From NCBI GenBank assembly GCA_963798485.1, contig CAWCTR010000009.1, positions 48,721 through 112,720 of the forward strand: DNA of 64,000 nucleotides, written 5' to 3'. Origin of the DNA: an uncultured delta proteobacterium (GTDB lineage: Bacteria; Desulfobacterota; Desulfomonilia; UBA1062). How positions within the stretch are numbered: position 1 is the stretch's first letter; each line of letters begins with the position of its first letter. The notes beneath the pieces are model-generated. The model had not been told where the DNA came from and did no database searches. It worked only from the letters and a program-made list of their open reading frames with translations. Positions 19,807 to 51,285 of the stretch are shown piece after piece. A program made the position numbers and the translations under genes.

Positions 19807-19879
<73 letters not shown>

Positions 19880-23124: not shown

Positions 23125-23320
23125 GGTTTTCTTTATAGCAATCACATACGATAGGAAAGTTGATTCCTGCTATATCTTCCCAGTTATATGATGCTCAGAA
23201 ACTGATGATTTTGGAAATAAATCTATGCCAAGGGGCATGAATACTCAGAGTGCCGATTTTGTCACGTGATCTATGGTTTTGAAAATCCCAACTCAGTTCG
23301 ATGCCTCTGGCACATTATCT
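23125..23320 (+). repeat. Dispersed repeat family copy R1 (with duplicated tctatg...tggcac sub-block)
   Basis: gaaactgatgattttgg...tctatg...cagag; 23271-23313 is near-identical to 36632-36674. Confidence 0.7.
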
Positions 23321-23699
23321 CCAGTTAGAGTCAACTAGTTATTACTTCATTCCAATTATTGCACAAGGATCATAATGTTATAATGTTGAAGGTCGATTAA
23401 CCATTATTGCTTAATGCAAAAGCATGACTCAGAGGGACTATGTTTTTATTTTTTTATAATTGCTTGAGCACAAGTGGAGTAAGATGTACTTATACTTATA
23501 CCACCTTGAGGAACCCAGCCTTGCTTTATTTCTTCATTTACTAGTCCTTCTAGTCTTTTAATAGCATCTTCATAATCTTTTCCAGAATATGTGGTGAGAA
23601 TTTTGTATTGCATGGTCTACCTCCAATTATAATCTGGTGTAATATTGTGCCAGTCGTTTTGGGGGACCATTATATCATGAGCTTTGTATCAGATCTATT

Positions 23700-23830
23700 T
23701 CAGAGATTATATTTCTTCGATTTCATCACGGTTTTGAGAATGCTGAAAACTGATGATCTTAAGTTCAAACCTATGCAGCAGGCGCTCTATATCAGAGCAT
23801 CAAGCGTGGCACGAAATCTTCACTTAAAGA
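23700..23830 (+). repeat. Dispersed repeat family copy R2
   Basis: cttcgatttcatcacggtttt...gaaaactgatgatctt...aaacctatg...gtggcacgaaat; shares its first ~20 nt with R8. Confidence 0.8.
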
Positions 23831-23881
23831 GTGTTATTTGTGTAATGTCTGTTAGTGTTTTTTTAGTTTCACGTAGTTAAT

Positions 23882-24688
23882 TCAAAAACGGATATGAGCC
23901 CCGAGAGCAATATTGCCATGTCCTATACTGACCTCAGGTTGAATATCGTTATCCAAGCCCATGAATGCATTATGGAAGAAGGCTGCCATGAAATTACCTA
24001 AAGCAAAACCCGCCAGCACATCCGAAGGATAATGCTTTTGGGCCTCCACCCGAGCCCAGCCTGTGCCAAGCGATACGGTGTACAGGGAAGCATCAGCTAT
24101 CCACCTGACCGGATCTGGCATGTCGATAGATTTAAGGTTGAGAGTTGCAAGTCGTGTGGAAACAGCAGCATGGGAAGCATGCCCTGAGGGCATGCTGTAG
24201 TAATCGGATCCATCCGGGCGAAGGCGATGTGTTGCATCCTTGAAAGATGTGGTGGACAGGCTAGTCGCTCCAATGGCTGCGGCATCCACAGCGAAGCCCT
24301 TTGTTTTGTTGCTCATCCACTCCTGTGACGTATCGCCGCTTGGTGTAGCTAAAAAGCTTGCCACATAAGCACCAGTGGCGATCCCTGCGAGCACGTTACT
24401 CGCATTCGCAGCACTGTCCTGGGAACCGAAAACGGGATTGTGTTCAGAAGCATAATGCGAAATCCTGCGGTCAAAGTCACGGTATTGAAGCGCTAAGGCC
24501 GTTACACAAGGCAACCAGACATCCAGTGATGTCACTGCATCTAAGGCTGAATTGCCTGCCTTTTTCCATCCTGGAGTTATGGTAGCATCCTGTCCCCACC
24601 CCCGACCAGTGTTAAGAGTTCCACAGGCAGGGAGTAATCCGAGGATGAATAGACCAGCAATAAATAGATAACTCAAATGGAGTTTCAT
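23882..24688 (-). CDS. PAP2-family phosphatase lipoprotein
   Basis: Lipobox LPAC; K...RP, PSGH and ARV...HYPSDV motifs. Confidence 0.9.
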   Translation of the reverse strand: MKLHLSYLFIAGLFILGLLPACGTLNTGRGWGQDATITPGWKKAGNSALDAVTSLDVWLPCVTALALQYRDFDRRISHYASEHNPVFGSQDSAANASNVLAGIATGAYVASFLATPSGDTSQEWMSNKTKGFAVDAAAIGATSLSTTSFKDATHRLRPDGSDYYSMPSGHASHAAVSTRLATLNLKSIDMPDPVRWIADASLYTVSLGTGWARVEAQKHYPSDVLAGFALGNFMAAFFHNAFMGLDNDIQPEVSIGHGNIALGAHIRF

Positions 24689-24770
24689 AATTGTATATGA
24701 ATAAAACCTATATGTAAAATTTCAAGAGCTTATTATATTGAAAACTACTTTCTATCTTATTAGTAATTCA

Positions 24771-25280
24771 ATGAAGGTGGCTGGTATAAAACCTTGGGAA
24801 GTGATCATTATCCCTGTACTCTTCTTTGCCACAACATCAGCACATGCAGATGGTGTATTTCTTGAAGGTGGACTTGGTTTCCAGTTCTCAACGGATTCTC
24901 AAGCCATGTTCCTCAACTATCATATCGACTCATCCCCAATTTTTGGGCTTGAGAGCTTTTATGATTTAGAACTCGGTTCCTGGAATGGACAGAATCACAA
25001 TGATGCGATCATTCTTGCCAAGGGAATGTGGTGGGATCTGCCTAAGAATACCTATTTCAGCTTTGAGCCTGGTGGTGCCTACATGGTAAAGACATCAAAC
25101 AATCTGGGCACACATCTTCAATTTGCATTCAGATTTGCTCTAGGTATGAGAACAGAAAAAATTGATTTCTCGATTGGTTATAGACACTTCTCTAATGGTG
25201 CAAAGGTTTTCCATTGGACAGATCCATCTAATAATAACGGTGAAAATTTCATTACACTCCAGATAGGCTACCTTTTATAA
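24771..25280 (+). CDS. Outer-membrane acyloxyacyl hydrolase / lipid A 3-O-deacylase (PagL-like)
   Basis: Signal peptide, LGTHLQF, YRHFSN catalytic motif, beta-barrel-type C-terminus; start uncertain. Confidence 0.8.
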   Translation: MKVAGIKPWEVIIIPVLFFATTSAHADGVFLEGGLGFQFSTDSQAMFLNYHIDSSPIFGLESFYDLELGSWNGQNHNDAIILAKGMWWDLPKNTYFSFEPGGAYMVKTSNNLGTHLQFAFRFALGMRTEKIDFSIGYRHFSNGAKVFHWTDPSNNNGENFITLQIGYLL

Positions 25281-25423
25281 TTCAAGCGAACAAGAACTAA
25301 GTCTTGTTTCAAAAGTTCGAAGGCATATATTCACAGTAGATCAAATTTTCTAAAATATAGAATATTAGAATAGAGATCTCTTCGATTAAAATAGGTAACC
25401 CCAAACATAGATTATGAACCATT

Positions 25424-25480
25424 GATAACTGCGATAAACTGGCGCTTTCCAAAGGCCCTAAAATCGATGATCTTGGTTTG
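25424..25480 (+). repeat. Dispersed repeat copy R3, interrupted by the group II intron
   Basis: gataactgcgataaa...aaaatcgatgatcttggtttg; repeat-like sequence (ctatg...cagag) resumes near 25846. Confidence 0.8.
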
Positions 25481-25837
25481 GTGTGTCACGAATGCCGCGA
25501 GGCAATGCTGTGTAAGAGATGAGGGAAGGTCCCTCGGCGCCGGTTTACAGGAGCAGGCTTCAAACCGCCTTAAGCTGCGATGGTAAAGAGCCATGGTGGT
25601 GAGCGTTAGGGGAAATGGCACAAGAATTAAAATGCGTCACGGTGAGTATCGGAGAGACGAGCGAAAGCGAACCAATCGATGAGGCATCGAAAGATCATGG
25701 ATGATGTCAAAACCAGGGTCCCAAACCAACTCTGGGAACAGCTCAGAGGAAACCTGTTTACTGTCTGAGTGGCATCCGGTGTATAGATGGCGTGAATCCG
25801 ATACGGGCTTTTACACGGAACGTGAGAACCTGTCGTC
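25481..25837 (+). mobile_element. Group II intron 5' fragment (domain I, class D/RmInt1-like), no RT ORF
   Basis: Starts GTGTG; typical domain I text (ggtggtgagcgttagggga, gagcgaaagcgaacc, ggcatccgg, ggaacgtgagaacctgtcgtc); EBS1 CAAACCA and EBS2 AGATCAT pair with the upstream exon. Confidence 0.85.
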
Positions 25838-26005
25838 TGGAGTCACTATGAAAAGCTATATTCAGAGAGCATAGATGCATGGTTAACGTCGCCCGATGAT
25901 ATATTCAATTCATCAAGACCTTGGATAGCCTCAAAACGGCTGAACTCTAACTTAAAAAGTGGTACAAGTATTGGTGGCCGGTCACATATGATGATGGGAT
26001 ATTAA

Positions 26006-26599
26006 ATGGTACGAATAAGTATCCGGAATCTTTTGATTGTTATAACAGTTGTACTCTGGTTGGATCCGACATCTGCCATATCAAGTGAATGGTCTCCTCC
26101 CGAGACCACAACCGATTGGATGAAGTTTACGAGTGGCATGGTCAGTTGTATTGCTGCTCATGAATTGTCACATGTTTTGGTTGCTCTAGAAAGCGGATAT
26201 ACAATCCATCATGATGGTTTATCGATTACCTATTCGCCGGAATTTAGATCTCGTGCCGATCATCTCCGCATCGCTTCAGCAGGTCTTCAGGGACAGTGGA
26301 TAGCATCCGAAGCTGCCTTTGCAGCTGGTGGGAAAGAGGGTAATTTTACGTCTGGGATTATAAGTGGGCACCTCGCCATAACGCTTGCGTATATCGTTGT
26401 GCTCAGGAACCACCCAGAAGGCGATACCGTTGGAATAGCCTCAGCAAGCGGCCTTAACGTCAATCAGGTTGTTTTCCTCGCTGCCCTACCAGCAGTTCTT
26501 GATGCCTGGCGTCTCTTCGGCAATGAAGTTCCGAAGTGGGTGCCTGTCCTTTCCCTCGCCCTCAAGGGCGCGGAGGCTTCATGGGTGTGGACGTTCTAA
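26006..26599 (+). CDS. Hypothetical membrane/secreted protein with HExxH motif
   Basis: N-terminal hydrophobic segment; AAHELSH; IASAG. Confidence 0.75.
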   Translation: MVRISIRNLLIVITVVLWLDPTSAISSEWSPPETTTDWMKFTSGMVSCIAAHELSHVLVALESGYTIHHDGLSITYSPEFRSRADHLRIASAGLQGQWIASEAAFAAGGKEGNFTSGIISGHLAITLAYIVVLRNHPEGDTVGIASASGLNVNQVVFLAALPAVLDAWRLFGNEVPKWVPVLSLALKGAEASWVWTF

Positions 26600-26780
26600 C
26601 TCGCATCTCCTATGAGCTATATTCAACCGAACAATCCTGCATCTTGAGATATTTTAGCAATCAGAGAGTCTTGAAATTAGTTTAGCTCCATAGAAGATAT
26701 CATTTGCCGATCTCAACGAGTGGGTGACAGTTCCAAACTGAATATATCTATAAGGAATTGAAGCTCCAGCCAGACTGAAT

Positions 26781-26955
26781 ATAACTGCGATAAATCGGTG
26801 GTTTCAAACGGACAAGGAAGAGTAGATGTTTTGTTTCGAAATCTTCGGTATGGGCAAAGCGTGACGATTATCACCATTATCATTAGTTTCTCAGGACATA
26901 TGGAACCGATTGATTTTATCGCATAATCTACAGTCCAGATGATTAGCTCCTGATA
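26781..26955 (+). repeat. Dispersed repeat copy R4
   Basis: 26781-26869 matches 34977-35065 at 87 of 89 nt. Confidence 0.9.
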
Positions 26956-26998
26956 CCACTTTGCGATTTAATGATGAATTCAGAATTACTTATCAGTG

Positions 26999-28090: not shown

Positions 28091-28227
28091 CTCTGGTTTA
28101 TTTCAATCATGTTTATCAGTCTCATGAACTCAAAAGAATGCATCCGGTCTTGCTATCAATGCTTGTATGCAGGTTTGTCCGGAGAAATTGAGCGGTATCA
28201 TGCTTGTATTTGGTGATAAGCTCATGA

Positions 28228-31240: not shown

Positions 31241-31769
31241 CTCTTCCTCCTTGAATGATATCTGGCCGCGAGACCTGGGGAAGCTCAGGCGATCCGACTG
31301 GTACCGGGGCGATGAATCTCTGCCCGGATCGGACTGATAAAACGATACCGTCGAATGAGATCTTGCCTGCATGGAGAGTAGGAAATTTATTTTGATAAGA
31401 ACTTGCTTTCAAGGGAATGGAGTATAGGAAAATTATTCTTGTATGTCAATAAATAGCTGACCATAAAATGTGGGGGTGGGCGTGGTTGATGGGGTAAGGG
31501 ATGTGATGTAGCACTCATCATTGATAAGGCAGCCGAGCTGGATCTGATAGAACAGGCATCATGGATTGAGGTTGAGCGTCTTATGATGGGTATCAAGAGG
31601 GGAAAAGGGGTTGCGCACTGGCTAGAGATCTGCTTCTGCTACCCCTTCAAGCTTAGGTATTCCAGAGTATAGATTTTTTGGTAATCATAGCAAATGGTGG
31701 GCATGGAAATTATAGATTATAGCTTCCATGCCAGAAGATACGGGTTCTGATTACTAAATGTTTCTAACC

Positions 31770-31935
31770 ATAATCATCGCTTTGTCCAAAGTGAACATAA
31801 CTGCGATAAATTGACGCGTTCGAAAGGCCTTAAAACCGATGATCTTGGTTTGAAACCTATGCTGCAAGGCACTTCATATCATACCGTTGCCACTGGCACT
31901 AACGAAATCTATGCTCTGGAATAACCATTGGCCTT
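31770..31935 (+). repeat. Dispersed repeat copy R5 (most complete unit; intact intron target at 31839-31852)
   Basis: ataatcatcgctttg...ataactgcgataaa...aaaaccgatgatcttggtttgaaacctatg...tggcac. Confidence 0.85.
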
Positions 31936-32082
31936 CGGCACCATCGGCAACCCGGGTACGGTATCGGCTATGATCACCTGCTGGGTGAGCAATGCCTAGT
32001 GCGAAACGCACTGCACACGATGGTTTGCCGAGAGAAATAAGAAACCCGGTACAACCCGCTGATACTCATTATTTCAAGACAT

Positions 32083-32117
32083 TAGAAAAGGGCCCTCACA
32101 TGAGTGCCCTTTTTCTC
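32083..32117. terminator. Terminator-like hairpin
   Basis: aaaagggc-cctcacatgagt-gcccttttt. Confidence 0.55.
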
Positions 32118-32162
32118 TTAAAGGTACTTGGAATGAGCTCTTGCATATATTATTATTCTGTT

Positions 32163-32753
32163 ATGAAAAAAATAATGAGAAGCCTGATTATTTGCATGAT
32201 CCTGTTCGGCATCATACCCCTTTCTAGCTATGCGGCTGCATCGGAGCAGGATTGCCTTGCTGCCATAACAAAAGTTAAACTCAAGCTGCCTGACGATCCT
32301 GTCGCCGCTGCTTCACTGGGCATCACGCAGAAGGACGGGCAAATAACGCTTAATGATATCGATGCCGAGGTAATCATCATCGAGATCTTCAGCATGTACT
32401 GCCCTTTCTGCCAGAGACATGCACCCATGACTAACAAGCTGCAAACAGTAATAGAAACACGCAGCGACACAAGAGGCAAGGTCAGGCTGTTGGGCATCGG
32501 TGTTGGCAATTCACCCTATGAAGTGAAGTTTTTCAAGAAGAAGTACGGCATTCAATTCCCCCTGTTTGATGATGCAAACTCAGCAGTCCTGAACATTCTT
32601 CCCGATATAAGAACGCCATATTATTTCGCCATTAGAAAAACAGGCAGATCCCTGAATGTTTTTTTCACACAACAAGGGGCCTTTGAAGATCCCGAGAAAT
32701 TCCTCAATACCGTGCTGAACAAGTCCAAACAATTACCCGGGAGAAACCAATGA
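32163..32753 (+). CDS. TlpA/redoxin-family thiol-disulfide protein
   Basis: Signal peptide; FSMYCPFC (CxxC); FPLFDD; RTPY. Confidence 0.85.
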   Translation: MKKIMRSLIICMILFGIIPLSSYAAASEQDCLAAITKVKLKLPDDPVAAASLGITQKDGQITLNDIDAEVIIIEIFSMYCPFCQRHAPMTNKLQTVIETRSDTRGKVRLLGIGVGNSPYEVKFFKKKYGIQFPLFDDANSAVLNILPDIRTPYYFAIRKTGRSLNVFFTQQGAFEDPEKFLNTVLNKSKQLPGRNQ

Positions 32754-33358
32754 AGAACCCACGACATCATTTACTTGTTGAGATAATATCCATCTTCTGT
32801 CTTGTCTTTTTCGGCATGCCTGTCCTGCATGCATCCGATGCATTGAAGGATGAAATTTACCAGGTGGGAACGCTCAAACCTATCGACAGTACACTGAAGG
32901 TGAAAGTCGGTGAGATGGCGCCGGATTTCACCCTTATGTCTCTTTCCGGCAAGGCCGTATCCCTGAAGGATTACCTGGGGAAGAAGAATGTCATGCTGTC
33001 ATTCGTGCCGGCAGCCTGGACCCCGGTTTGTTCAGATCAGTGGCCGGGATATAATATCGCAAAGGATGAATTCGACAGTTATAATACGGTTCTGCTCGGT
33101 ATAACAGTGGACAACATACCGACCCTCTATGCGTGGACAAAAGCCATGGGTACCCTGTGGTTTCCGGTGTTATCGGATTTCTGGCCCCACGGGAAAACGG
33201 CCCAGTCCTATGGTGTCCTACGTTCCAGCGGAACAGCGGAAAGGGCGATTTTCATCATCGACAAAAAGGGCCTGGTCCGGTACATCGATGTCCACGACAT
33301 CAACAAGAGACCTCCCCTGGAAACCATCATGGCTGAGCTGGAGAAGCTGAATAAGTAA
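32750..33358 (+). CDS. Peroxiredoxin (AhpC/TSA, AhpE-like)
   Basis: APDFTL, PAAWTPVC, LSDFWPHG, ERAIFIID. Confidence 0.9.
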   Translation: MKNPRHHLLVEIISIFCLVFFGMPVLHASDALKDEIYQVGTLKPIDSTLKVKVGEMAPDFTLMSLSGKAVSLKDYLGKKNVMLSFVPAAWTPVCSDQWPGYNIAKDEFDSYNTVLLGITVDNIPTLYAWTKAMGTLWFPVLSDFWPHGKTAQSYGVLRSSGTAERAIFIIDKKGLVRYIDVHDINKRPPLETIMAELEKLNK

Positions 33359-33611
33359 CGCCTTCTCATCCCAAGAGCAGCTTTTAAGGCGTTTGAAGAA
33401 TTATCTCCACGTTTTCCTGAATAACTCGAACTCGACTTCATGCATCCCAGGATGTTTGTTTATGATGTGAGCAATAAAATAGTTACAACAGATTATGTAA
33501 GGGGTCATTATCTAAAGATTTTTTGACATTGCAATATGATGGGTCTTGTTTTTTGGGGTTACTGCATTAAGATATCATATTTGTAGTAAAAAATTAAGAA
33601 TAGGGGGAAAT

Positions 33612-34184
33612 ATGAAAGGTAAAATATTTTCATCAATCATGGTGTTTTTAATAGCTCTCTTCTTTCAATCTGCTTGCTTATCTGCCGATGAATTTGAAGC
33701 TGGTCTCTGCCAATGGGTGCCGAGGGATATAATTTCCAAAGTCACGGCTATTAATGTGAAAGCCATGGAAATAACCTTGAAAACCTCCCGTGGAAAATTG
33801 ATCACTTTTGCTGTTGATAAAAGTGTGAAGGATCTATCCACCTTCGCTGTAGGTAATAAAGTCAAGGCAAGATATTATATGTCTTTAGCAGCAGAAGTCC
33901 GCAAGCCCACTCCTGAGGAAAAAAAGACTCCATTTGTAAAACTCGATGAAACCTGTCCATTGCCACCCAGGGCAACTCCAGGATCAGAGATAAAGATGTT
34001 TCGAGAAGTTGTAACTGTAAAAGAGTCTGATCCTGACCTTGGTTTTTTATTAATTAAGAAATCAGATGGTAAGGAAGAATGGGTAAACACCAGTGAACAG
34101 GCATTCCCGGTATCTGTAGAAATTGGGAATAAAGTCGTGATGAAATATTCACAGCCTTTTATTATTGCCCTTAAAAAACTTTAA
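33612..34184 (+). CDS. Hypothetical exported protein (OB-fold-like)
   Basis: Signal peptide; long ORF with RBS. Confidence 0.7.
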   Translation: MKGKIFSSIMVFLIALFFQSACLSADEFEAGLCQWVPRDIISKVTAINVKAMEITLKTSRGKLITFAVDKSVKDLSTFAVGNKVKARYYMSLAAEVRKPTPEEKKTPFVKLDETCPLPPRATPGSEIKMFREVVTVKESDPDLGFLLIKKSDGKEEWVNTSEQAFPVSVEIGNKVVMKYSQPFIIALKKL

Positions 34185-34207
34185 ACACCATACAGATACC
34201 GAGATTA

Positions 34208-34240
34208 CCTGGCTCTTGCCTTATTACGCAGGAGCCAGGT
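34208..34240 (+). terminator. Hairpin after the hypothetical gene
   Basis: cctggctcttgc...gcaggagccagg. Confidence 0.55.
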
Positions 34241-34447
34241 TCATAGAATTCTTCGTAAGACCACTCCCGGATAATATACACTTTCAGAAAGTCAAGTAGA
34301 GATGGTGAAAGTGTCAAAGGTCTTCAGAAATTTCCCCTAGTTTTAAATGTCCCACCTCTACTTGACTCATCATATTTCATTGCTATTATAGAAGTATCTT
34401 CTCTGAATTATTCCCCAGAAGAATACTTTGAATAGAGATTTATATTT

Positions 34448-34898: not shown

Positions 34899-34976
34899 CA
34901 TCGAATTTTTCTTAGTTCCTTCTGGTGTAGATATATTTATCTATGCAGAAGGAAACTATCCTTCAAAAAAGTGTCG

Positions 34977-35070
34977 ATAACTGCGATAAATCGGTGGTTC
35001 CAAACGGACAAGGAAGAGTAGATGTTTTGTTTCGAAATCTTCGGTATGGGCAAACCGTGACGATTGGCAC
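34977..35070 (+). repeat. Dispersed repeat copy R6, left half (continues at 36627-36690 after IS110)
   Basis: Near-identical to R4; rejoining the halves gives tggCACattatc as in R1 and R8. Confidence 0.88.
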
Positions 35071-36626
35071 CCATTAAAAGGCCCCTGTCAATAAAAACAT
35101 AGTTCACCATCGCACTTTTTTTTGCAGGTCTAACGTATAGCCAGCTGGGATCATGCCAACGATTCCCTTTCTGCGCCCTGTTTTTCATTATGCTCAGGTG
35201 ACAGATTACAATCTGCACCAGGCACCCATCGGGTTTTAGACTGCACAGCGAGAGGATGAACCTAGATGAGTAGCCCTCTCAACCCGTACGCCCCTAACAG
35301 CATCTGCTGTCCCAGAAAAATATCGGTTCCTTGCCATGTTCAATTGTAAGTGACACGACAATAGGCTCTTCCGGCCACACCTTAAAGACTCATGGCAAAG
35401 GCAGATCTGAACCATCGGAATTACCTCCACTGGATTCTTGTTTATAAGAGAGGGGTAAACGGCGGAGCAACCACGAAAATGGTTCTTAGCCACCAAACGT
35501 CTGGTCTCGCCGTTTTCCCCTGCTCAGCAAAAGAGCATCTCTTCCTTGAACTCAACGCCATCTCTGAGCATATAGTAGCAGGCCCTGGCAAGCTTGCTTG
35601 CTATGGTCTTGATTGCCACCATCCTGTGAGTTTTCGAAGCCTTCCTTTTGTAGTAGCCGGCAATCTTCGGGGACTGCCTTAGGGAGATAAACGCCGCTTC
35701 AACAAATGCCCAAGCCAGATACCGGTTCCCATTCTTTGCATTGCCTTTGCCCTTGCTCTTCCCGTTCGAAAACCTCCCGGTAGGAACACAACGGCAGTAA
35801 GAGGAGAAGTCTCCCACCCTTGCAAACCGCGAAATATCTCCCACTTCCAGCATGATCGTCATGGCAAGGATGTCACCGATCCCAGGAACCATGTGCAGTT
35901 TCTCAAAAGCATCCCTCGTCTTCACTTCTCTCTTTACCGTCTTCTCGATATTCCTGATGTTCTTCCCGAGAAAGGCTATGGTTTCAAGGCTCGTTGTACC
36001 AAGGAGAACTAAGTGCTCCTCCTTCAATATCCCTTTGATGTCTTCCGATTTAACCTTCCTCAGTGCATTCGCACTCATGTGCACACCGGTGTTCCTCTCG
36101 ATCATGGACTGCAGCGAGATGATATGGGCTGTTCTTTGCTTTACCAGGAATGATCTCTTCCTCAAGAGATCTCGAACCGGTCGCTCTTCCCTGGGATAGA
36201 TATATCCTTCAGGGAGAATGCCGAGAGACATCATCTGCGCAAGCCAGAAGGCATCATGTCGGTCATCCGCATACTTGAGCCCTTTGTACTGCTGTATCGC
36301 TGCAGGATTGGCAAGATGTACACAATCATACCCTGCCTCATTGAGCCCATCCACCAGCCAGTACCAGTTAAAGGTGCTTTCGACAGCTATCCCCCTGATC
36401 TCTTCACGGTAAGGGTTTAGGGTCCAAACGAGTTCTTCCAGGTTATTCTTTACACGCTTCTCGAAAACTCGCTTCATTGTTCCCTTCTCGATCAGCCCTA
36501 TGTACGTGTTCCCTGAATGGAGATCCAACCCGGCATACAGCTCACTCATGACACACCTCCTCCTGAGTTATTGTCTGTATTATAGCCGTGCGATCTTGGC
36601 GAAAGTGCCTTTTAGATGATTATCAC
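35071..36626 (-). mobile_element. IS110-family (IS1111 group) insertion sequence
   Basis: Subterminal IRs TAAAAGGC at 35075 and 36614, CAC core at both junctions, ~450-nt non-coding end downstream of the transposase. Confidence 0.85.
35524..36549 (-). CDS. IS110 family transposase
   Basis: GLDLH, VEST, K..D..DA (DEDD), VPGIG, SNG...GNRYL. Confidence 0.95.
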   Translation of the reverse strand: MSELYAGLDLHSGNTYIGLIEKGTMKRVFEKRVKNNLEELVWTLNPYREEIRGIAVESTFNWYWLVDGLNEAGYDCVHLANPAAIQQYKGLKYADDRHDAFWLAQMMSLGILPEGYIYPREERPVRDLLRKRSFLVKQRTAHIISLQSMIERNTGVHMSANALRKVKSEDIKGILKEEHLVLLGTTSLETIAFLGKNIRNIEKTVKREVKTRDAFEKLHMVPGIGDILAMTIMLEVGDISRFARVGDFSSYCRCVPTGRFSNGKSKGKGNAKNGNRYLAWAFVEAAFISLRQSPKIAGYYKRKASKTHRMVAIKTIASKLARACYYMLRDGVEFKEEMLFC

Positions 36627-37049
36627 ATTATCTATGGTTTTGGAAATCCCAACTCAGTTCGTTGCCTCTGGCACAGGATCAACAGATTATTCACATGGGG
36701 TGGAAAATTTAAACGCTCATTTTTTACAGGCAGTTTTTATCACGCTCAATCACCCCACCTGTCAAAGTGCGGTTAAATCGGCGCTTACAAATATCCCGAG
36801 GATAATTGCAAATAATATTAATACCAACCATTCCATAAGTGGAATATCCTTTTTGTGAGGCGTTCAAGTAACTCATCCTTGTTGTTTAATCCCACATGAT
36901 ATTTAAGGTCGGTTAAAAAGTGCCGGAACTTAAGCATTACGAAAGTGTGGTGGGAACAAAGCCAAGGTCTTTACAGTGCACGTTTGCAATCCAGGAACAC
37001 CATTATAAAGTCAGACTCGGGCAAAGATTTTCTGGACCATCCTCATGGG

Positions 37050-37170
37050 TGATTTCTTCGATTTCTTATCGGTTTTAGGATGTCTGAAAACCGAAGATCT
37101 TGGGCTGAAACATACAGAGCATATCATTTCATACTAAAGCATGACACATGACGTAACGAGATTTATACTT
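37050..37170 (+). repeat. Dispersed repeat copy R7
   Basis: gatttcttcgattt...tcggttttag...ctgaaaaccgaagatcttgggctgaaacatac. Confidence 0.8.
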
Positions 37171-37373
37171 ACATCAGACTCCCTTAAAAATGAATCTGTC
37201 ACCTTTTCTTTCTTTGGCAGATTGTATGATATACTCTATAGCATGTTTCTCCGGGCAGCTTAGGCAAATCTTTTAGGCTTGCCCATGGTTCTTCGTATTT
37301 CATGATAATCCTGCCAAACTCGACGAGCTTGGTCTGAAGGGCCAGGTTGTGAATCTATGAATTCAACTTACCA

Positions 37374-39029: not shown

Positions 39030-39317
39030 TCATCTTCCTCCTATGGGATACCTTCTTAATTTTCTCTCCCAACGGCTCTTATTTATATAAGTCCTGAAAG
39101 ATTAAAAGGGAGATGACACTTAAAATCTCTCTGCTCCTATGCCTTTTCGGAAAGAGCAGAGAGAAAGACTTCTGGATCTCTCCATGACCTTCCACTCAAA
39201 AACAATTTTCCAGAAATCCCACCAGAGATTTATTAGAAAAGTAGGGGTCAAAGATGATTTTCTAATATGATTGATCTCTGTAATAACTCATCTGCCTCAA
39301 TCTTTGAGTATCAACCA

Positions 39318-39505
39318 TAGATTACTTCGATTTCATCACGGTTTTCAAAAGTCCAAAAGCTGATGATCTTGGTTTCAAATCAATGGTATTCTGGCTACAG
39401 ATTCAAAGCGCCGCTCATGGCACATTATCATCGGTTTCTTGGGACGTGTGGGATCGATGATTTTATTGTATAATCATCGCTTTAGCCTATATGAATAGTT
39501 CTGAT
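39318..39505 (+). repeat. Dispersed repeat copy R8 (one unit plus start of next)
   Basis: attacttcgatttcatcacggtttt...gatgatcttggtttc...tggcacattatcatcgg...cgatgattttattgtataatcatcgc. Confidence 0.85.
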
Positions 39506-39523
39506 CAGTTGCTACGCATCATC

Positions 39524-40812: not shown

Positions 40813-40882
40813 GTCTTGACTATGTTGATCTGCAGGCTATTTACGCTGTCAACATACTACAATTAATCTCAAAGGAGTTTTT

Positions 40883-41271: not shown

Positions 41272-41336
41272 GATTTTATTACCCGGAACTCTCGAACTCC
41301 AGGAATCAAGTAGAACATTAGACAGGAGTTGAATGT

Positions 41337-41723: not shown

Positions 41724-41757
41724 TTTCAGCAATAGCTTTTCATAAAGGGGGTGTACT

Positions 41758-42720: not shown

Positions 42721-42794
42721 GAAGAACTAGTTGTCAGCAATCTACATACCCAAAAGGGTTTATACAATGAGCATAAGCAAGAGAAGATGAGTGT

Positions 42795-44112: not shown

Positions 44113-44284
44113 AACTCACCTCCTGAAGGTATCCGGCAGCATGAACAAGCACTGTCATAAGCATAACTAATCGCCTCTCTTTCTAAGTCAAGAGACGAAA
44201 GAAACAAAATCATTAACACCAAAAACGAACTGAAGATTTGTGTCAGAAGCAACGACCTGAGTTGGGTTTTTCAAAACCATAGAT

Positions 44285-44430
44285 TTCATGATAATCATCG
44301 CTTTGCCCATATTGAATATCTCTTCGATAGATGATCGCTTTCTTGATCATCTAAAATGTACATATCTTGAGTTGAGATCTATCCTTTGCTGGTGGCATTC
44401 ACAAAGTAACGATCCTGGCACGCTCTTACC
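44285..44430 (+). repeat. Dispersed repeat copy R9
   Basis: ataatcatcgctttgccc...gatcctggcacg. Confidence 0.7.
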
Positions 44431-44676: not shown

Positions 44677-44896
44677 TCTTTTTCTTACTTTGTGAAACCC
44701 TCAAAGGAGTTCCGCCAACAAAATGGTAAACCTCCCTCTGATGACATGATGCCCAATGGACAAATGATAGTTGCATCATAAGCCCAAGACGATTACTTGC
44801 TGAATTGACCTATCCTTTAATGGGAGCTCAACCATCCCTGATATCCCTGATAGAGATATTGAAGATCCCTACGATAATTCAATGGTCCCATCTCCC

Positions 44897-45030
44897 TACC
44901 CTCTGCTAGAGATATCGAAATATAATCTATTGTCTCAGGAAAGGCCAACTTTGCGTTATCTGGGTTGTATAACCATGAGTGATCCTGAAGAAATAAGCAG
45001 CCAACTATCTGTATCTGACCATCTTCCAAA
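44897..45030 (-). repeat. Divergent repeat copy R10 (inverted counterpart of 51152-51278)
   Basis: gtcagatacagata..ttggctgct...ggatcactcatg...gataacg...atagattatatttcgatatc shared with R13. Confidence 0.8.
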
Positions 45031-45131
45031 CTTTTCCACCTGTAGTCTCTTATAAATAAATGTTGTTAAAGAATGGGAAGGGTTCTGACGAAAATCATAA
45101 GTGATAATAGAATTCAGGTAAAGGTGTACAC

Positions 45132-45766: not shown

Positions 45767-45957
45767 TATCCAAAGGGTGAGGTTACGATCGATCTCTTAC
45801 TCAGGACGAATATAGGCCGGTTGTTTGAGCTGTCAGGTATGCTACACATCTTTACATTTCAATAAAAACGCCGAATCGGCGTTTTTCTCCATTGAGTAAA
45901 TGGGGAGTGGACGAAGGATTAGGAGTGGAGTGACTTATATAAAAAACAGGATCGGGA

Positions 45958-46085
45958 GGATATAAATTCGATTTATTTTCGGTTTTAAGATAGCTGAAAA
46001 CTGAATATATTGTTTCCAAATCTATGGTATTAAGGCTATCGGCTCAGAGCGCCGATCCTGGCACGAACTATACAATATTTCCATA
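45958..46085 (+). repeat. Dispersed repeat copy R11
   Basis: ttcgattt..tcggtttt...ctgaaaactga...aaatctatggtatt...cagagcgccgatcctggcacgaa. Confidence 0.8.
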
Positions 46086-46426
46086 TTTCCATGCTAATAA
46101 AACCGATGCTTCTTTGCGTAATCAATGGTAAACCGTTCGAAATGGGAAGTATATATTCCTTATGAGACTGTCGAAAAAGTCAAAGGATAAAAATTAACAA
46201 AAAAATGATCTCGTAAAATGCCCTGCAATGGAAAATCTTGAATCGGGGAATGTGTTTTGATGTTCAAAATAATCAATATTGAATAACGTATTATTCTATG
46301 ATATTTTAGTAGATAGTTTTTCCATCTTGATTATGAATCCTTCAAGGGGAAAAGGGAAAAGCCTTTGCATCTATGAAGCGAATGCTTCTGAGAAGATAAC
46401 AATAGCATTTAGAGAGGAGGGTCTCT

Positions 46427-47221: not shown

Positions 47222-47589
47222 GCTACATAAGCTTCTGCGTCAGACATCAGGCCGATGCGTGCTTACCCTTTGAGCGCGCAATCGGCTTATTGGCTGCACT
47301 TTTTGGCGTTTTACCTCATAAGTTGGTTCCTATCGAGAATTGTGCAGAGTTCCTCGCGCTATATGCACTGTGATTAGCAAAGTCCTGAGTATCGATTGCA
47401 CCTGAATACCTGTACTTTGGACCTCAGTCATATTTTGTAGATGTGTGTACTTCATCTGGCACATCAATGAATATAGATTGTTAATAATATACAATAATAT
47501 CATACTGTTGATTATACTACAAACTATATGATTATCTTAATGTGGTTCAGATCGAATATAATGTGCCAAGATCGAAACACTACACAGAG

Positions 47590-47705
47590 CGTAGATAACT
47601 GCGATAGATATGTACTTTTTGCAGAGACCAAGAACCGTTGATCTTGGTTTGAAACATACGGAGCTTATCACTTCTCACCAGAGCGTGATAATGGTATGTT
47701 ATCTA
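47590..47705 (+). repeat. Dispersed repeat copy R12
   Basis: gataactgcgata...accgttgatcttggtttgaaacatac...cagagcg. Confidence 0.8.
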
Positions 47706-47885
47706 TAGTTTTACCCCAACTGCACTTGGTTTTTCATTCAAAACACCATCCAATATATCGACCGCTTTGACCTTGTGACTTGGGGCAAGATGAGCATATC
47801 TAAGGGTTATGGTAAGGGTTTTATGCCGTAGAAGCTCTTTAATCGTTGTAAGGTCTACCCCAGCCATGACAAGGTGACTTGCAAA
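47703..47885 (-). pseudogene. Tyrosine integrase C-terminal fragment
   Basis: FASHLVMAGVDLTTIKELLRHKTLTITLRYAHLAPSHK (box II with catalytic Tyr); not shown in the ORF track. Confidence 0.85.
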
Positions 47886-48556
47886 GGAATGCCTCTGAGT
47901 TTGTTATTCAGACCGTATTTCCGATAAACCCAATCGGCATAGTTGTAATTCATTCGGTCAACTATTACATAATCAACCCTTCCATTAAGTGTCTCCACGA
48001 GACCTTCTGCACCAGGAAGCATGGGGGCAATCATGGCATAAGTTCTAATTCTGGCTCGGTGCAATTCATCAAGGGCATCTAGTCGATCCTTAATTGGCGG
48101 CGCATAGGGTTCGAATAATTTCCTGATACTATCGTCCGCTGTGGTAACAGTAAGTCCGACTTCAGAATCGCTCGCTTACTGAAGTATATCCACATCCCTC
48201 AGCACCAGAGGGGATCGTGTCTGCACTATCACCGGCCAGCTATTCTGTACCAGTATTTCCAGGCATCTTCTGGTGATTCCATATTTTGCCTCCAGCGGTT
48301 GGTATGGATCACATACTCCGCTCATCCAAACGCTTCCTTTCTTTTTCTTATTGATCTCCACCCGCAGCAAATAAGGAGCGTTTATTTTAACATCGACAAA
48401 TTCACCCCAAGGTTCTTTGTGTCCAGTAAACCTTTTCATAAAGCGAGCATAACAGTAAGTGCAAGCATGCTGACAGCCAGTGTAGGGATTGACGACATAA
48501 TCGTAGACCTTCGACGCGGAGAGAATAGACTTTGCCCGAATTTCCTTTACAATCAT
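47886..48556 (-). pseudogene. Spore photoproduct lyase-like radical SAM protein with internal stop, 3'-truncated
   Basis: NPYTGCQHACTYCYA, CDPYQP; TAA at 48176-48178, then continues in frame (EVGLTVTT...FEPYAPP). Confidence 0.85.
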
Positions 48557-48950
48557 ACTTAATGCCCTATCCCAGCACATATTTCTGTCATAACAGAACC
48601 TCGCGTTTTCATGGAAACTATAGTGTGATACAGACAATCGTTCTTGTCAATCAGCATGGGGCTTTACCCTGCCGGAAGATTTCATTAAATTTAGATGGCC
48701 CCTTTACCTCTCAAGGGGCCTTATTTTTAAACTTTTCATGAGATAGAGCTTCAGGCAGCATATTCTCGTTTCCATTGAAAACAGTCGTGTAGACTAAACT
48801 CTCAAATTGAACGTCATAATACTCAAGGGAAATGACGCTAAAGAGGATCTATTGTTTTATATTTAGAGTAATGCATCCTATATATCCAGGAGGAACCATG
48901 AAGAGAGTACTCGTGGTAGATTTTGAAGAATATTTCGAGGAGGCTTAACA

Positions 48951-49565: not shown

Positions 49566-49614
49566 TGAAAGCCGTTAGGATCGTTCCCAGGTTTCTTCTC
49601 TCATGAACGATCAT

Positions 49615-49752
49615 AAAAGGAATTGCCCTTAATGATTGGAGTATCGACAAAGTCATCGATGCCCTCATGAAGGCAAGGAAAGTATTGAGGAATAGCGATA
49701 GCCTTCAGAAATTGGTCCCTGATCATAAAGTGGATTAGGATCTGCTGGCTGA
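49615..49752 (+). pseudogene. Inverted partial copy of the PC4-like gene 3' end
   Basis: KGIALNDWSIDKVIDALMKARKVLRNSDSLQKLVPD; highly similar to 45500-45641 on the - strand. Confidence 0.85.
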
Positions 49753-49935
49753 CTTGGATTAGCCTCGATGAATTAATACAGGAAAGTGGGTATTGTTCTA
49801 TTATTCCCTTTATCAGAACAGCTGCATATCCCTTGAGGCGGGATTATTTCAGTAAAGAGCTGCCTCACCAAGTCTCGGGCTCTTTTCGGTAGATTTCTGA
49901 ATCAACTTTGCATACTCCCTTTGTTAACTTCATTA

Positions 49936-51048
49936 TCACGACTCTATAAACATCGTCTGCCCGTGCTTCAGTTCTACTAGCTTATCCAGAAGCCCCGCCT
50001 TTTTCATTTCCCTGCGGATGTCATTAGGCGGAAAATAGACCGGCTCATCACCCAGCCTGAATGTGCCCCAGTGGACTACAAGCAGCTTTTTTGCCCCAAT
50101 CTCCCGGAATGCTTGAACAACTTCTTCAGGGTTCATATGGGACGTCTTCATGAACCACCGGGGTTCATAGGCTCCGAGATTAAAGATGGCAAGGTCTATG
50201 TTGTAATGCTCCCCGATCTCCTTGAACCCGTTGAAGTAGGCAGTATCTCCCGAGACATAGATGGTTCGGCCTGGAGAGGTCTTGATAATATACGAACCCC
50301 ACAATGCAGTGTTCGGGCCTATGAAGGGGTTACGCATAGTCCAATGGTTGCATGGAAGGAATGTTATCTCAAAAGATCCTATTGTCGTACTATCCAGCCA
50401 ATCAAGCTCCTGGACCTGACTCGATCCATTCTCTTTGAGAAGGCTGCCATAGCCGAGAGAACAGAGAAAACGTGCATGGTCGTTGAAGATCTGTAGTGAT
50501 TTTAGATCGAGATGATCATAATGCCCATGGGTTATGAGCACGGCATCGATCTTCGGCATCTCTCCGGGCGAAAAGGCAATGGGACTGAAATTCTTAATGG
50601 GCCAGATCAGACCGAACAGCACCGGGTCTACGATAATACTTGTGCTGTTGTCTTTGATGAGAACGGTGGCGTGGGTGATATAGGTGATGCTCAGACTCCT
50701 ATGTTTTTTTAATTGTCCCCAATCGATTCTTACAGGCTCGATCTTTTCATCTTTATAAAAGGGCTCGAAGGAGTTTCTTGATAAGAATCGCCATTTGATC
50801 ATATCCCAGAAGCTTCTCTTCTTAAAGGAGGGGTTGAAAGGGTTAATGAAATGTCCATCACCATGATGGACTTTACTTCTGGCAATATCCCACAGGCTCA
50901 TCTTCGAAACATCCAGCTTGTTGGTACCAACATTAAAACCCTCAACTTGATTAAATTTAAATGTAAGTATGGAGGCAATACCGAAAAAAGCAGCTGAGAA
51001 TAGATACTTTAAAAACCCTCTTCTTTCAATAGCGGTATCCTCTTTCAT
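49936..51048 (-). CDS. MBL-fold metallo-hydrolase (NAPE-PLD/RomA-like), Tat-type signal
   Basis: ERRGFLK, ITHGHYDHLD, SGDTAY, GAYEPRW...HMNPEE, VHWGTF. Confidence 0.9.
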   Translation of the reverse strand: MKEDTAIERRGFLKYLFSAAFFGIASILTFKFNQVEGFNVGTNKLDVSKMSLWDIARSKVHHGDGHFINPFNPSFKKRSFWDMIKWRFLSRNSFEPFYKDEKIEPVRIDWGQLKKHRSLSITYITHATVLIKDNSTSIIVDPVLFGLIWPIKNFSPIAFSPGEMPKIDAVLITHGHYDHLDLKSLQIFNDHARFLCSLGYGSLLKENGSSQVQELDWLDSTTIGSFEITFLPCNHWTMRNPFIGPNTALWGSYIIKTSPGRTIYVSGDTAYFNGFKEIGEHYNIDLAIFNLGAYEPRWFMKTSHMNPEEVVQAFREIGAKKLLVVHWGTFRLGDEPVYFPPNDIRREMKKAGLLDKLVELKHGQTMFIES

Positions 51049-51100
51049 TGCTCTCCTGATTTCTAGTTTCGGAACAGGCTACAATCTTTTTTTATTTTAC

Positions 51101-51285
51101 ATGATAATCACCTCTGCCATTTATTAACATCAAAATATCTGGTGGATAAAGTTTGAAAGATAGTCAGATACAGATAGGTTGGCTGCTACACCTTCTGGAT
51201 CACTCATGCTTCCTCATCCTGGATAACGTCCATCTGGCTTGGCCTGGCCTGAGATGGATAGATTATATTTCGATATCATTGGTCA
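51101..51285 (+). repeat. Divergent repeat copy R13
   Basis: atgataatca...gattatatttcgatatcatt spans ~170 nt; inverted match to R10. Confidence 0.65.

What the first reader, a model, noticed from the sequence alone, without database searches (positions are those of the whole stretch)
23125..51285. Unrecognised ~170-180 bp repeat family punctuating a gene-cassette-like accessory region
Seen: about 13 degenerate copies (near 23.2, 23.7, 25.4, 26.8, 31.8, 35.0/36.6, 37.1, 39.3, 44.3, 44.9(-), 46.0, 47.6 and 51.1 kb), nearly all on the + strand. The motif order is conserved: ATAATCATCGC / ATAACTGCGATA or TTCTTCGATTT / GGTTTT...AAAACCGATGATCTTGGTTTGAAA / CTATG...CAGAGC / TGGCACATTATC. The copies lie between unrelated cargo modules of either orientation, and I saw none in the core region before tRNA-Ala. 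Gene fragments end right at copies (kinase at R8, integrase at R12). The copies look mosaic, mixing alternative blocks. Inference: they may be recombination or capture sites of an integron-like platform that is not attC, REP or CRISPR, or relic ends of one mobile element family.
Basis: partly seen in the sequence, partly recalled or inferred. Interest (0 to 1): 0.9.

Follow-up and report, generated by a model that had tools for sequence, protein, structure and literature searches.

The report
Mosaic intergenic repeat, mobile-element docking site
The repeats are real: a non-coding, roughly 125-base mosaic element, specific to one lineage of uncultured sulfate-reducer-like bacteria, that sits at the joints between swapped gene modules and is a favoured landing site for several mobile elements, but it is not an integron.

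Summary
Eleven units, in 12 pieces because one is split by an insertion sequence (IS), lie on the + strand between 23155 and 47721. None lies before 23000.

The unit has a ~125-nt core (GTAGAT..CTKCGAT … AAAACYGATGATCTTGGTTTGAAAC … CAGAGCG … TGGCAC-G..ATCTAC) with alternative flanking blocks that extend it to ~190 nt.

- **Distribution:** about 98 copies in this genome, 93 intergenic. They are clustered in low-GC regions and locally co-oriented. A model of the unit matches 12 of 14 species of the genus.
- **Excluded:** it is not coding, matches no Rfam family, has no shared fold and shows no target duplication. It is not linked to RAYT-type (REP-associated) transposases or to the genome's three integron integrases.
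- **Mobile-element docking:** four kinds of element insert at fixed unit positions. These are an IS110-family IS (5 of 5), two group II intron lineages (7 of 7 and 2 of 2) and an IS1182-like IS (2 of 3).
- **Module boundaries:** high-identity modules shared between species end at the unit tips.

Best reading: a new NIME/BIME-like intergenic mosaic repeat that serves as a junction and landing pad in accessory islands. The recombinase is unknown. The integron-like capture reading is not supported but not excluded.

The parts
23155..23325 (+). unit 1, long form with a second TGGCAC..ATCT motif in its right extension
   Evidence: nhmmer profile columns 23-191, 101 bits; R1 23157-23280, E 3.5e-21
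23701..23832 (+). unit 2, core only
   Evidence: R1 23707-23826, E 4.5e-26; 92% identical to the copy at contig C17 216651
25415..25480 (+). unit 3, left half only, cut after GATCTTGGTTTG by a group II intron fragment
   Evidence: R1 model positions 3-65; junction read
25481..25841 (+). 5' fragment of a group II intron (lineage B), starting GTGTG
   Evidence: Rfam RF01999 at 25521-25642, 95.6 bits; 86% identical to contig C4 162709-163064
26757..26934 (+). unit 4, long form with an inverted copy of the left tip at its right end; 95-96% identical to unit 6 over its first ~100 nt
   Evidence: (family D4)
31768..31929 (+). unit 5, with the left extension block ATAATCATCGCTTTG..
   Evidence: 124.7 bits; R1 E 8.1e-26
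31904..34255 (+). cargo module (two AhpC/TSA-like genes and a 212-aa ORF). It starts in the right tip of unit 5 (GAAATCTATG) and ends in a solitary left-tip-like TAGAATTCTTCG at 34244-34255
   Evidence: 93% identical to G002:C16:44278-46629, against 74% for core genes; boundaries read; a contig of run X4 covers 31904-34255; Pfam; tip match
34961..35070 (+). unit 6, left part up to TGGCAC
   Evidence: profile columns 15-133; junction
35071..36626 (-). IS110-family insertion sequence inside unit 6 (transposase 35524-36549). CAC is present at both junctions. The long non-coding region lies 3' of the gene
   Evidence: Pfam DEDD_Tnp_IS110 and Transposase_20; 5 of 5 full copies in the genome sit at the same unit position
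36627..36688 (+). unit 6, right part (ATTATCTATGG.. and the right extension)
   Evidence: profile columns 130-189; R1 36629-36688
37045..37209 (+). unit 7
   Evidence: 91.6 bits; R1 E 1.9e-23
39303..39481 (+). unit 8, long form, followed by the start of another left extension block
   Evidence: 117.3 bits; R1 E 4.2e-25
44290..44427 (+). unit 9, divergent central block
   Evidence: 65.4 bits; R1 E 2.2e-14
45954..46129 (+). unit 10
   Evidence: 100.7 bits; R1 E 8.7e-24
47565..47721 (+). unit 11, with paired ends GTAGATAAC / GTTATCTA
   Evidence: 94.8 bits; R1 E 2.8e-22; DNA fold z -3.74
19806..19880 (+). tRNA-Ala(GGC). Synteny with the closest species (G007) ends about 80 nt after it, so the accessory region starts here

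Best explanation
The copies belong to a lineage-specific, non-coding intergenic mosaic repeat. The closest known parallels are the neisserial NIME arrays and the enterobacterial BIME/REP elements.

Each unit has two conserved tips: 5'-GTAGAT..CTKCGAT on the left and TGGCAC-G..ATCTAC-3' on the right, which are partly inverted copies of each other. Between them lies a ~90-nt central block. Alternative extension blocks can be attached on either side.

I think the units do two things. First, they are neutral, multi-copy landing pads that site-specific mobile elements have learned to target. Second, they are the joints at which foreign or paralogous gene modules are connected in accessory islands. 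Arrays would then grow by repeated joining of modules at resident units, which keeps neighbouring units in one orientation.

**Shown:** the anatomy, the distribution, the insertions at fixed positions, and the breakpoints at the tips.
**Inferred:** that joining happens at the tips by some recombination step, and that this builds the arrays. The enzyme is unknown.
For: **Family and anatomy**
- 98 non-overlapping profile hits in the genome; 73 score 30 bits or more.
- The core is about 125 nt. Sequence identity between copies breaks off sharply at block boundaries.
- Model R1 matches 12 of 14 species of the genus and 34 of 52 genomes of the family, with 0 to at least 66 matches per genome.

**Placement**
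- 93 of 98 copies are intergenic, with no rule relative to flanking genes.
- Median spacing is about 3.5 kb, against 59 kb if copies were spread evenly.
- Flanking GC is 46.8% against 50.8% at random places, Mann-Whitney p 2.5e-18.
- Neighbours within 10 kb: 25 co-oriented, 8 opposite, binomial p 0.0046. Co-orientation fades at longer distances.
- A unit's closest sequence relative is a near neighbour in only 5 of 50 cases, so arrays are not tandem duplications.

**Docking of mobile elements**
- IS110-family IS: 5 of 5 full copies are inserted at TGGCAC|G. Unit matches in G003:C8 and G002:C5 end just where an IS match begins.
- Group II intron lineage A: 7 of 7 copies follow CTKCGAT plus three bases. 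In 1 of the 7 the unit visibly resumes, at profile column 44, after the intron.
- Intron lineage B: 2 of 2.
- IS1182-like IS: 2 of 3 at the central GATCTTG|AAAC site.

**Joints**
- The AhpC module at 31904-34255 is 93% identical to G002, against 74% for core genes. It starts in a right tip and ends in a solitary left tip.
- The flank upstream of unit 1 is almost identical to G004 over the ~150 nt before the unit, judged by eye from the alignment, up to the left tip. The unit interior is much less alike and the downstream DNA is unrelated.
- The left block of unit 5 is identical in G007 and G002 up to CTGCGATAA, where a different central block follows.
- 22 of 546 ends of duplicated segments lie within 40 nt of a copy, against 0.44% of the genome. 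More than half of these are IS110 ends.

**Known parallels**
- NIME arrays, with the dRS3-recombination hypothesis and a phage that integrates into dRS3 (PMC1797815, passages read).
- REPs as 100%-same-position targets of IS110-family and other IS (PMC1525189, passages read).
Against: - No recombinase or transposase is tied to the units. No circular or empty-site form was seen.
- The laid contigs were short and gave no clean excision joint.
- Breakpoints fall at two places, after CTKCGAT(A)A and after TGGCAC. A single-crossover site would give one.
- The right end of the AhpC module carries only a 12-nt tip and no unit in either genome.
- Part of the 'ends at tips' signal could arise because BLAST extends alignments into tips that all units share.
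- Copies are old: median pairwise identity is 55% and the maximum 92%. Current activity is therefore unproven.
- Many copies are solitary.
- My gene calls came from a crude longest-ORF method.
Confidence: 0.55

Rival explanations
1. The units are relics of an old MITE-like non-autonomous transposon. They spread by transposition in trans, the parent is now lost or unrecognised, and the copies are decaying neutrally. Module boundaries and mobile-element insertions coincide with them only because they mark junk-rich accessory DNA.
For: The units are small, intergenic and multi-copy, and copy number varies between species from 0 to at least 66. Part of the copies have short inverted termini GTAGAT(AAC)…(GTT)ATCTAC, with apparent compensating pairs such as GATTCC/GGAATC, seen by eye. 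Long forms carry a ~30-nt inverted copy of the left tip. Closest relatives are scattered over the genome (45 of 50 are not local). Divergence is high.
Against: I saw no target-site duplication in 31 full-length copies. No element with matching ends was found, though the search was not exhaustive. Random transposition does not predict 25:8 co-orientation of neighbours. Neutral decay does not predict the strongly uneven column conservation.
Confidence: 0.25
2. One reading: the units are attC-like capture sites of an integron-like cassette platform, served by a dedicated site-specific recombinase.
For: Arrays are co-oriented with 0.5-5 kb spacing between unrelated cargo. Modules shared between species are bounded by unit tips. 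The units are targeted by an IS110-family IS and by group II introns; from recall, both element types also target attC sites. The genome encodes three integron integrases above the TIGR02249 cut-off. Some units have AAC…GTT at the inner side of paired ends.
Against: The integrase genes are on contigs C5, C12 and C19, with no unit within 100 kb on C5 and none on C12 or C19. The sites next to the C12 integrase are GC-rich and unlike the units. No hairpin fold is shared: RNAalifold predicts 0 pairs, and DNA z-scores run from +0.71 to -3.74 with 1 of 12 below -2. R''/R' boxes (RYYYAAC/GTTRRRY, consensus recalled) are not met on inspection. Cargo genes face either way and modules hold up to 7 ORFs. 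Many units are solitary.
Confidence: 0.12
3. The units are REP/REPIN-type elements spread by a RAYT (REP-associated Y1 transposase).
For: There is a GTAG head at the left end and CTAC at the right end. The size is like a REPIN doublet. The genome holds Y1_Tnp-like ORFs of 220-232 aa.
Against: None of 7 Y1 loci is flanked by units; one has a weak hit about 900 nt away on one side. Y1-like genes are present in G012 (0 units) and G009 and G014 (1 unit each), and were not found in G004 (24 units, 71% complete). The unit does not fold as one long hairpin.
Confidence: 0.04
4. The units are genes for a structured small RNA or a cis-regulatory leader, or they are decayed pieces of a protein-coding gene.
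For: A local hairpin CGGTTTT…AAAACYG recurs. Four σ70-like sites lie near the right ends of units in a scan of 23000-42999. Some minus-strand reading frames look peptide-like.
Against: No Rfam match at E<=5. No consensus structure. Orientation is unrelated to neighbouring genes. Promoter-like and terminator-like sites are no more frequent than in shuffled sequence: 31 against 26.4, and 18 against 17.3. There is no 3-base periodicity, and the best frame is open in only 15 of 39 copies.
Confidence: 0.04

Closest known systems
Neisserial intergenic mosaic elements (NIMEs: dRS3 inverted repeats flanking RS elements)
   Same: Both are non-coding units of ~50-150 bp bounded by short inverted motifs. 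Both are mosaic, clustered in arrays that also hold IS insertions, and sit next to variable genes. The boundary motif is used for integration by an element with a transposase/recombinase. Recombination with foreign DNA at the boundary motif has been proposed for NIMEs (PMC1797815, passages read).
   Different: The sequences look unrelated: on inspection the tips are GTAGAT/ATCTAC-type, not ATTCCC-N8-GGGAAT. Here there is one central block family with a few variants, not more than 100 RS families. Units are mostly separated by 0.5-5 kb of cargo and are not packed head to tail. Neighbours are co-oriented. The host is an uncultured lineage labelled Thermodesulfobacteriota.
REP/BIME elements as specific IS targets (ISPpu9, ISPpu10, ISPa11, IS621)
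   Same: Both show a 'type 1' association: every copy of an IS110-family IS sits at the same position in the repeat (here 5 of 5). Several IS families and a group II intron use the same repeat (PMC1525189, passages read; PMC11187229 and PMC11208160, seen only as listing and abstract).
   Different: The unit is 125 nt and not a 20-40-nt GC-rich palindrome. It has no RAYT link. Four kinds of element use three different fixed positions within one unit.
Integron attC sites and CALIN arrays
   Same: Both form co-oriented arrays between unrelated cargo. From recall, attC sites are also targeted by IS1111-type IS and by group II introns. Cassette-like modules are shared between species.
   Different: No attC-type fold or boxes. 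No linked IntI. Cargo lies in either orientation and holds several genes. The sequence, not the structure, is what is conserved.
MITEs and Correia / BOX-type elements
   Same: Size, copy number, intergenic position, partial terminal inverted repeats and modular build.
   Different: No target-site duplication and no identified parent transposase. Neighbours are co-oriented. No subfamilies of near-identical copies: the highest pairwise identity is 92%.

Membership tests
Integron attC / CALIN | Single strand folds into an imperfect hairpin (R''-L''…L'-R') | tested here: not met
   RNAalifold predicts 0 pairs on 29 and on 34 copies. DNA folding of 12 units gives z from +0.71 to -3.74, with no common fold.
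Integron attC / CALIN | R'' RYYYAAC and R' GTTRRRY boxes at the ends (consensus recalled, not taken from a call) | tested here: not met
   By inspection of alignments A1 and A2 and of the unit ends, only a minority have ..ATAAC / GTTATC... The purine and pyrimidine positions do not fit. IntegronFinder's attC model was not available.
Integron attC / CALIN | Integron integrase next to the array (not required for CALIN) | tested here: not met
   Three TIGR02249 hits above the cut-off lie on contigs C5, C12 and C19. No unit lies near them. Different GC-rich sites lie beside the C12 gene.
Integron attC / CALIN | Cassettes of mostly one promoterless ORF, co-oriented with the array | tested here: not met
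   Flanking gene orientations are 22/26/28/20 across the four classes. Window modules hold 0-7 ORFs on either strand.
MITE | Terminal inverted repeats | tested here: inconclusive
   6-9-nt inverted termini are present in part of the copies. Long forms carry a ~30-nt inverted left tip.
MITE | Target-site duplication flanking each copy | tested here: not met
   None seen, by eye, in the flanks of 31 full-length copies.
MITE | A parent IS with the same ends | tested here: inconclusive
   None noticed among repeated segments and neighbouring gene families. The tip regex was too loose to settle it. ISfinder was not available.
REP/REPIN with RAYT | A RAYT gene flanked by the repeats, co-occurring with them across genomes | tested here: not met
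   0 of 7 Y1 loci are flanked on both sides. Y1-like genes occur in genomes with 0-1 units and were not found in one genome with 24 units.
NIME-like intergenic mosaic element (filed as 'works like', not as a member) | Short inverted boundary motifs around repeat blocks; arrays; IS insertions; variable neighbouring genes | tested here: met
   Membership proper is limited to Neisseria dRS3/RS sequences, which on inspection these are not.
Any Rfam RNA family | Covariance-model match | tested here: not met
   At the gathering threshold, only tRNA and RF01999 match in the window. At E<=5 over 23000-48000, no unit is matched.
Decayed protein-coding gene | Open frame, 3-base periodicity of conservation | tested here: not met
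   Lag-3 autocorrelation is 0.115, below lags 1 and 2. The three phases are equally informative. The best frame is open in 15 of 39 copies.

The most novel reading that the evidence does not exclude
The units are the joining sites of an undescribed cassette-accretion system in an uncultured lineage labelled Thermodesulfobacteriota. In this reading, foreign gene modules are spliced in at the conserved unit tips (after CTKCGAT and after TGGCAC) by a site-specific enzyme. One candidate is the IS110/IS1111-type DEDD recombinase, thought to be RNA-guided, that already docks at TGGCAC|G. The result would be co-oriented arrays that work like an integron but without IntI, attC hairpins or cassette polarity.
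Probability: 0.13. Interest if true: 0.85.

Novelty: new variant of a known kind. Interest (0 to 1): 0.5.

Why it matters
If the tips really are recombination joints, this would be a second, independent example of what has been proposed for NIME/dRS3 in Neisseria: a dispersed non-coding repeat that organises the exchange of accessory genes. It would come from a little-studied environmental lineage, and it comes with a testable enzyme candidate.

Even on the modest reading there is practical value. The family is a natural example of one repeat that four kinds of mobile element (an IS110-family IS, an IS1182-like IS and two group II intron lineages) have each come to use at a fixed position. That is useful for studying target choice by bridge/seek-RNA recombinases and by retrohoming introns. 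It also helps in annotating metagenome-assembled genomes of this group, where such repeats break assemblies.

Tried and rejected
**Coding remnant.** Six-frame translations of the minus strand looked peptide-like in places. Periodicity and stop counts across 39 copies rejected this.

**Structured RNA or single-stranded DNA.** RNAalifold on A1 and on the profile alignment predicted no pairs. RNA and DNA z-scores were weak. Rfam gave nothing.

**Promoter or terminator.** Counts were no higher than in shuffled sequence.

**Replication-strand bias.** Contig GC skew does not track unit strand, and co-orientation fades beyond 30 kb.

**Tandem duplication as the origin of arrays.** Rejected: the nearest sequence relative is local in only 5 of 50 cases.

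**RAYT link.** Rejected.

**Integron link.** Rejected.

**Guide-RNA complementarity of the IS.** A k-mer look between the IS and its target was uninformative, and no result from it is used.

**Palindromic 'solo site' counts** (ATCWAY-N-RTWGAT). Slightly above a crude control, but most hits are inside genes, so nothing is built on them.

**Tip regexes over the genome.** Too loose to be useful. In the window the tip pattern gave 30 matches against 15.4 expected, including solitary tips at 25373 and 34244.

**Strain comparison from public runs.** Only Logan contigs at low depth were available.
- The 'joints' 23739>37087, 23737>36644 and 26868>39418 are best read as other mosaic copies laid partly on two units, not as excisions.
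- No support for or against cassette excision came from this.
- Parts of the stretch without cover, and runs holding only small shares, are not used as evidence of anything.

**Right-hand synteny of the island.** No return to G007:C3 was found up to the end of the contig, so the island's far border is undefined.

**Literature.** Searches found no description of this repeat.
- The only paper holding both 'Desulfobacterota' and 'miniature inverted-repeat transposable' was a review of integrons, seen as a listing only.
- This shows no more than that those four searches of the held library found nothing. Supplementary files were not opened.

Full report

Yes, for most of it.
- The repeat finder recovers the copies as families D1, D2 and D4-D7.
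- A profile seeded from eight window copies and iterated on the whole genome found 72, then 92, then 103 hits, which reduce to 98 non-overlapping copies.
- In the window, the profile and the sequence-only Infernal model R1 agree on 11 units in 12 pieces, all on the + strand, from 23155 to 47721. Nothing matches at E<=1 in 1-23000.
- Weak partial minus-strand matches lie at 31711-31784, 44273-44365 and 54150-54232.
They form an inverted pair of another small family (44911-45062 and 51118-51277, 76% over 161 nt) with two more matches on contig C17.

**2. Anatomy**

- Matches to R1 in this and related genomes run almost always from model positions 2-6 to 123-128 of 129. The conserved core is therefore about 125 nt: GTAGAT..CTKCGAT – CGGTTTT..AAAACYGATGATCTTGGTTTGAAAC.TATG – variable stretch – CAGAGCG – TGGCAC-G..ATCTAC.
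- Some copies carry a left extension, either ATAATCATCGCTTTG.CCAAAGTG or ..CTCAATCTTTGAGTATCAAC.. .
- Some carry one of two right extensions. One of these is an inverted copy of the left ~30 nt.
- Conservation along the unit is very uneven.
- Alignments with other species show abrupt switches of block. The left block of unit 5 is identical in G007 and G002 up to CTGCGATAA, where a different central block follows.

**3. What it is not**

- **Not coding.** There is no 3-base periodicity, and the best frame is open in only 15 of 39 copies.
- **Not a known RNA.** At the gathering threshold Rfam finds only the tRNA and a group II intron domain. At E<=5, no unit is matched.
- **Not a conserved fold.** RNAalifold predicts no pairs on 29 or on 34 copies. 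Twelve units folded as DNA give z-scores from +0.71 to -3.74, with only one below -2 and no common structure.
- **No promoter or terminator signal above shuffles**.
- **No target-site duplication,** judged by eye in 31 full-length copies.
- **No RAYT link.** None of 7 Y1-transposase loci is bracketed by units. Y1-like genes occur in species with 0-1 units and were not found in one species with 24 units.
- **Not part of a classical integron.** Three integron-integrase genes pass the TIGR02249 cut-off, but they lie on contigs C5, C12 and C19. The sites beside the C12 gene are GC-rich and unlike the units. No unit lies nearby.

**4. Distribution**

- The genome has 4.30 Mb in 32 contigs and 50.6% GC.
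- Its closest named relatives are metagenome-assembled genomes labelled Thermodesulfobacteriota or 'delta proteobacterium'.
- The best-holding public run is a freshwater-sediment metagenome that may be the source sample.
- 93 of 98 copies are intergenic by a crude ORF call. Flanking genes face all four ways about equally: 22 ++, 26 --, 28 +-, 20 -+.
- Copies are clustered: median spacing is about 3.5 kb, against 59 kb if evenly spread.
- They lie in lower-GC DNA: 46.8% against 50.8%, p 2.5e-18.
- Neighbours within 10 kb are co-oriented 25:8 (p 0.0046). Beyond 30 kb this is lost. Over the genome the strands are 36 + and 37 -.
- The closest relative of a unit is local in only 5 of 50 cases, and median pairwise identity is 55% with a maximum of 92%. 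The arrays are therefore old and are not tandem duplications.
- R1 finds the family in 12 of 14 species of the genus (0 to at least 66 matches each; scoring stops at 66). It is found, thinly, in 6 other genera: 34 of 52 genomes of the family in all, counting G000. A plain BLAST search found it in no genome of the sister family, 0 of 16.
- Local runs of co-oriented units also appear among the listed matches in relatives, for example four minus-strand units within 5 kb on G002:C7 (only the best 150 matches are listed).

**5. Mobile elements dock at fixed positions**

- **IS110-family IS in the window** (35071-36626; transposase 35524-36549; Pfam). It splits unit 6 at TGGCAC|ATTATC. All 5 full copies in the genome sit at the same position, with CAC at both junctions. 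In G003:C8 and G002:C5 a unit match ends at model position 112, just where an IS match begins.
- **Group II intron lineage A.** All 7 copies begin GTGCG directly after CTKCGAT plus three bases. In one, a truncated intron, the unit resumes at profile column 44. In the other six no resumed unit was found within 3.2 kb.
- **Group II intron lineage B.** The 25481-25841 fragment in the window (RF01999) and one copy on contig C4 follow the GATCTTGG… block, 2 of 2.
- **IS1182-like IS.** Pfam families DDE_Tnp_1_6 and DUF772. It sits in the central GATCTTG|AAAC site in 2 of 3 copies; the third lies about 100 nt beside a unit.
- This matches the 'type 1 association' described for REPs and IS110-family IS (PMC1525189, passages read).

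**6. Units mark module boundaries**

- **Start of the accessory region.** Synteny with the closest species (G007, 88% over core genes) ends about 80 nt after tRNA-Ala. G007 has a different accessory region there that also holds units.
- **AhpC module.** The module at 31904-34255 is 93% identical to G002:C16, while core genes of G002 are 74% identical. A peat-metagenome contig (run X4) covers the same span. The shared stretch begins at GAAATCTATG, the right tip of unit 5, and ends at TAGAATTCTTCG, a solitary left tip. The two genomes differ beyond both points.
- **What precedes the module in G002.** There is no full unit there, only tip-like motifs including ATCTAC-GA-GTAGAG.
- **The 212-aa gene.** In G003 it is preceded by a full unit 20 nt before homology starts. 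In a contig of run X3, a TGGCAC..ATC.. tip abuts position 33459.
- **PAS-kinase flank.** The flank upstream of unit 1 is almost identical to G004 over the ~150 nt before the unit, judged by eye, up to the left tip. The unit interiors then differ and the downstream DNA is unrelated.
- **Within the genome.** 22 of 546 ends of duplicated segments of 700 bp or more lie within 40 nt of a copy, against 0.44% of the genome. More than half of these are IS110 ends. The rest fall near profile columns 39-41, 83, 123 and 147.

**7. Interpretation**

The sequence facts fit a dispersed intergenic mosaic repeat. The nearest described analogue is the NIME array of Neisseria, where short inverted dRS3 motifs flank RS blocks, arrays hold IS insertions, a phage integrates into dRS3, and recombination with foreign DNA at dRS3 has been proposed (PMC1797815, passages read).

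I think the most likely account is this. The units persist as neutral, multi-copy sequence. Site-specific mobile elements have adapted to them. The tips act as preferred joints when modules are gained or exchanged, and that builds co-oriented arrays.

The last step is inference. Three things remain unexplained:
- the enzyme is unknown;
- there are two breakpoint positions where one crossover site would be expected;
- the co-orientation of neighbouring units has no demonstrated cause.

A plain old-MITE reading remains a serious rival. The integron-like reading fails its defining tests but is kept as the boldest possibility.

**8. Limits**

- Only one genome per species was available.
- The laid public data were short contigs.
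- Gene calls were crude.
- The attC covariance model and ISfinder were not at hand.
- Some statements rest on recall and come from no call: that IS1111-type elements carry their guide RNA 3' of the transposase, the attC box consensus, and that attC sites are targeted by IS1111-type IS and by group II introns.

Noticed in passing
window 44911-45062 and 51118-51277: An inverted pair of a second, small repeat family: 76% identity over 161 nt, with two more matches on contig C17. It brackets about 6 kb holding a PilZ gene, two units, an integrase fragment, a radical-SAM fragment and a metallo-beta-lactamase-fold gene. Its outer end (..ATCGAAATATAATCTAT) resembles the unit tip.
   Followed up: partly
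genome contigs C5:12795-13733, C12:6524-7471, C19:228-1175 (outside the window): Three integron-integrase genes score above the TIGR02249 cut-off. Contig C12 shows short co-oriented ORFs and GC-rich attC-like sites beside the gene. C12 and C19 are near-duplicates of each other.
   Followed up: partly
whole genome G000: Many long near-identical stretches are shared between contig ends, for example C12/C19, C22/C29, C26/C27, C27/C28 and C4/C25. With 6.96% estimated contamination, this suggests assembly redundancy or two strains in the bin.
   Followed up: no
window 31904-34255: A module of two AhpC/TSA-like genes and a 212-aa ORF of no known family is 93% identical to another species of the genus (core genes 74%), and a contig of a peat metagenome run covers the same span. 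This suggests recent horizontal spread. In G002 a 192-aa ORF lies just upstream; from its sequence I guess it is AhpD/CMD-like, but it was not scanned.
   Followed up: partly
window 20238-22790 (-) and 20689-21351: An 850-aa protein made of six or more PAS domains, with internal 381-bp periodic DNA repeats (families D3 and D8). It belongs to a large paralogous sensor-kinase family that is often found next to units.
   Followed up: no
window 23701-25480, compared with contig C17 17593-21028: The segment unit–PAP2–PagL-like–unit is duplicated on C17 at 83-89% identity, together with the neighbouring PAS-kinase gene. This is a segmental paralogue that includes its units.
   Followed up: partly
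window 42795-43316 and 48176-48637: There are truncated genes in the island: a GRDB-like (selenoprotein B family) C-terminal piece and a weak radical-SAM N-terminal piece. This fits a decaying accessory region.
   Followed up: no
contigs C24:19944-22859, C4:216297-219215, C4:159254-161418 (outside the window): MobA/MobL relaxase-helicase genes (971 aa) recur in unit-rich regions. This hints that some arrays lie within integrated mobilisable elements.
   Followed up: no
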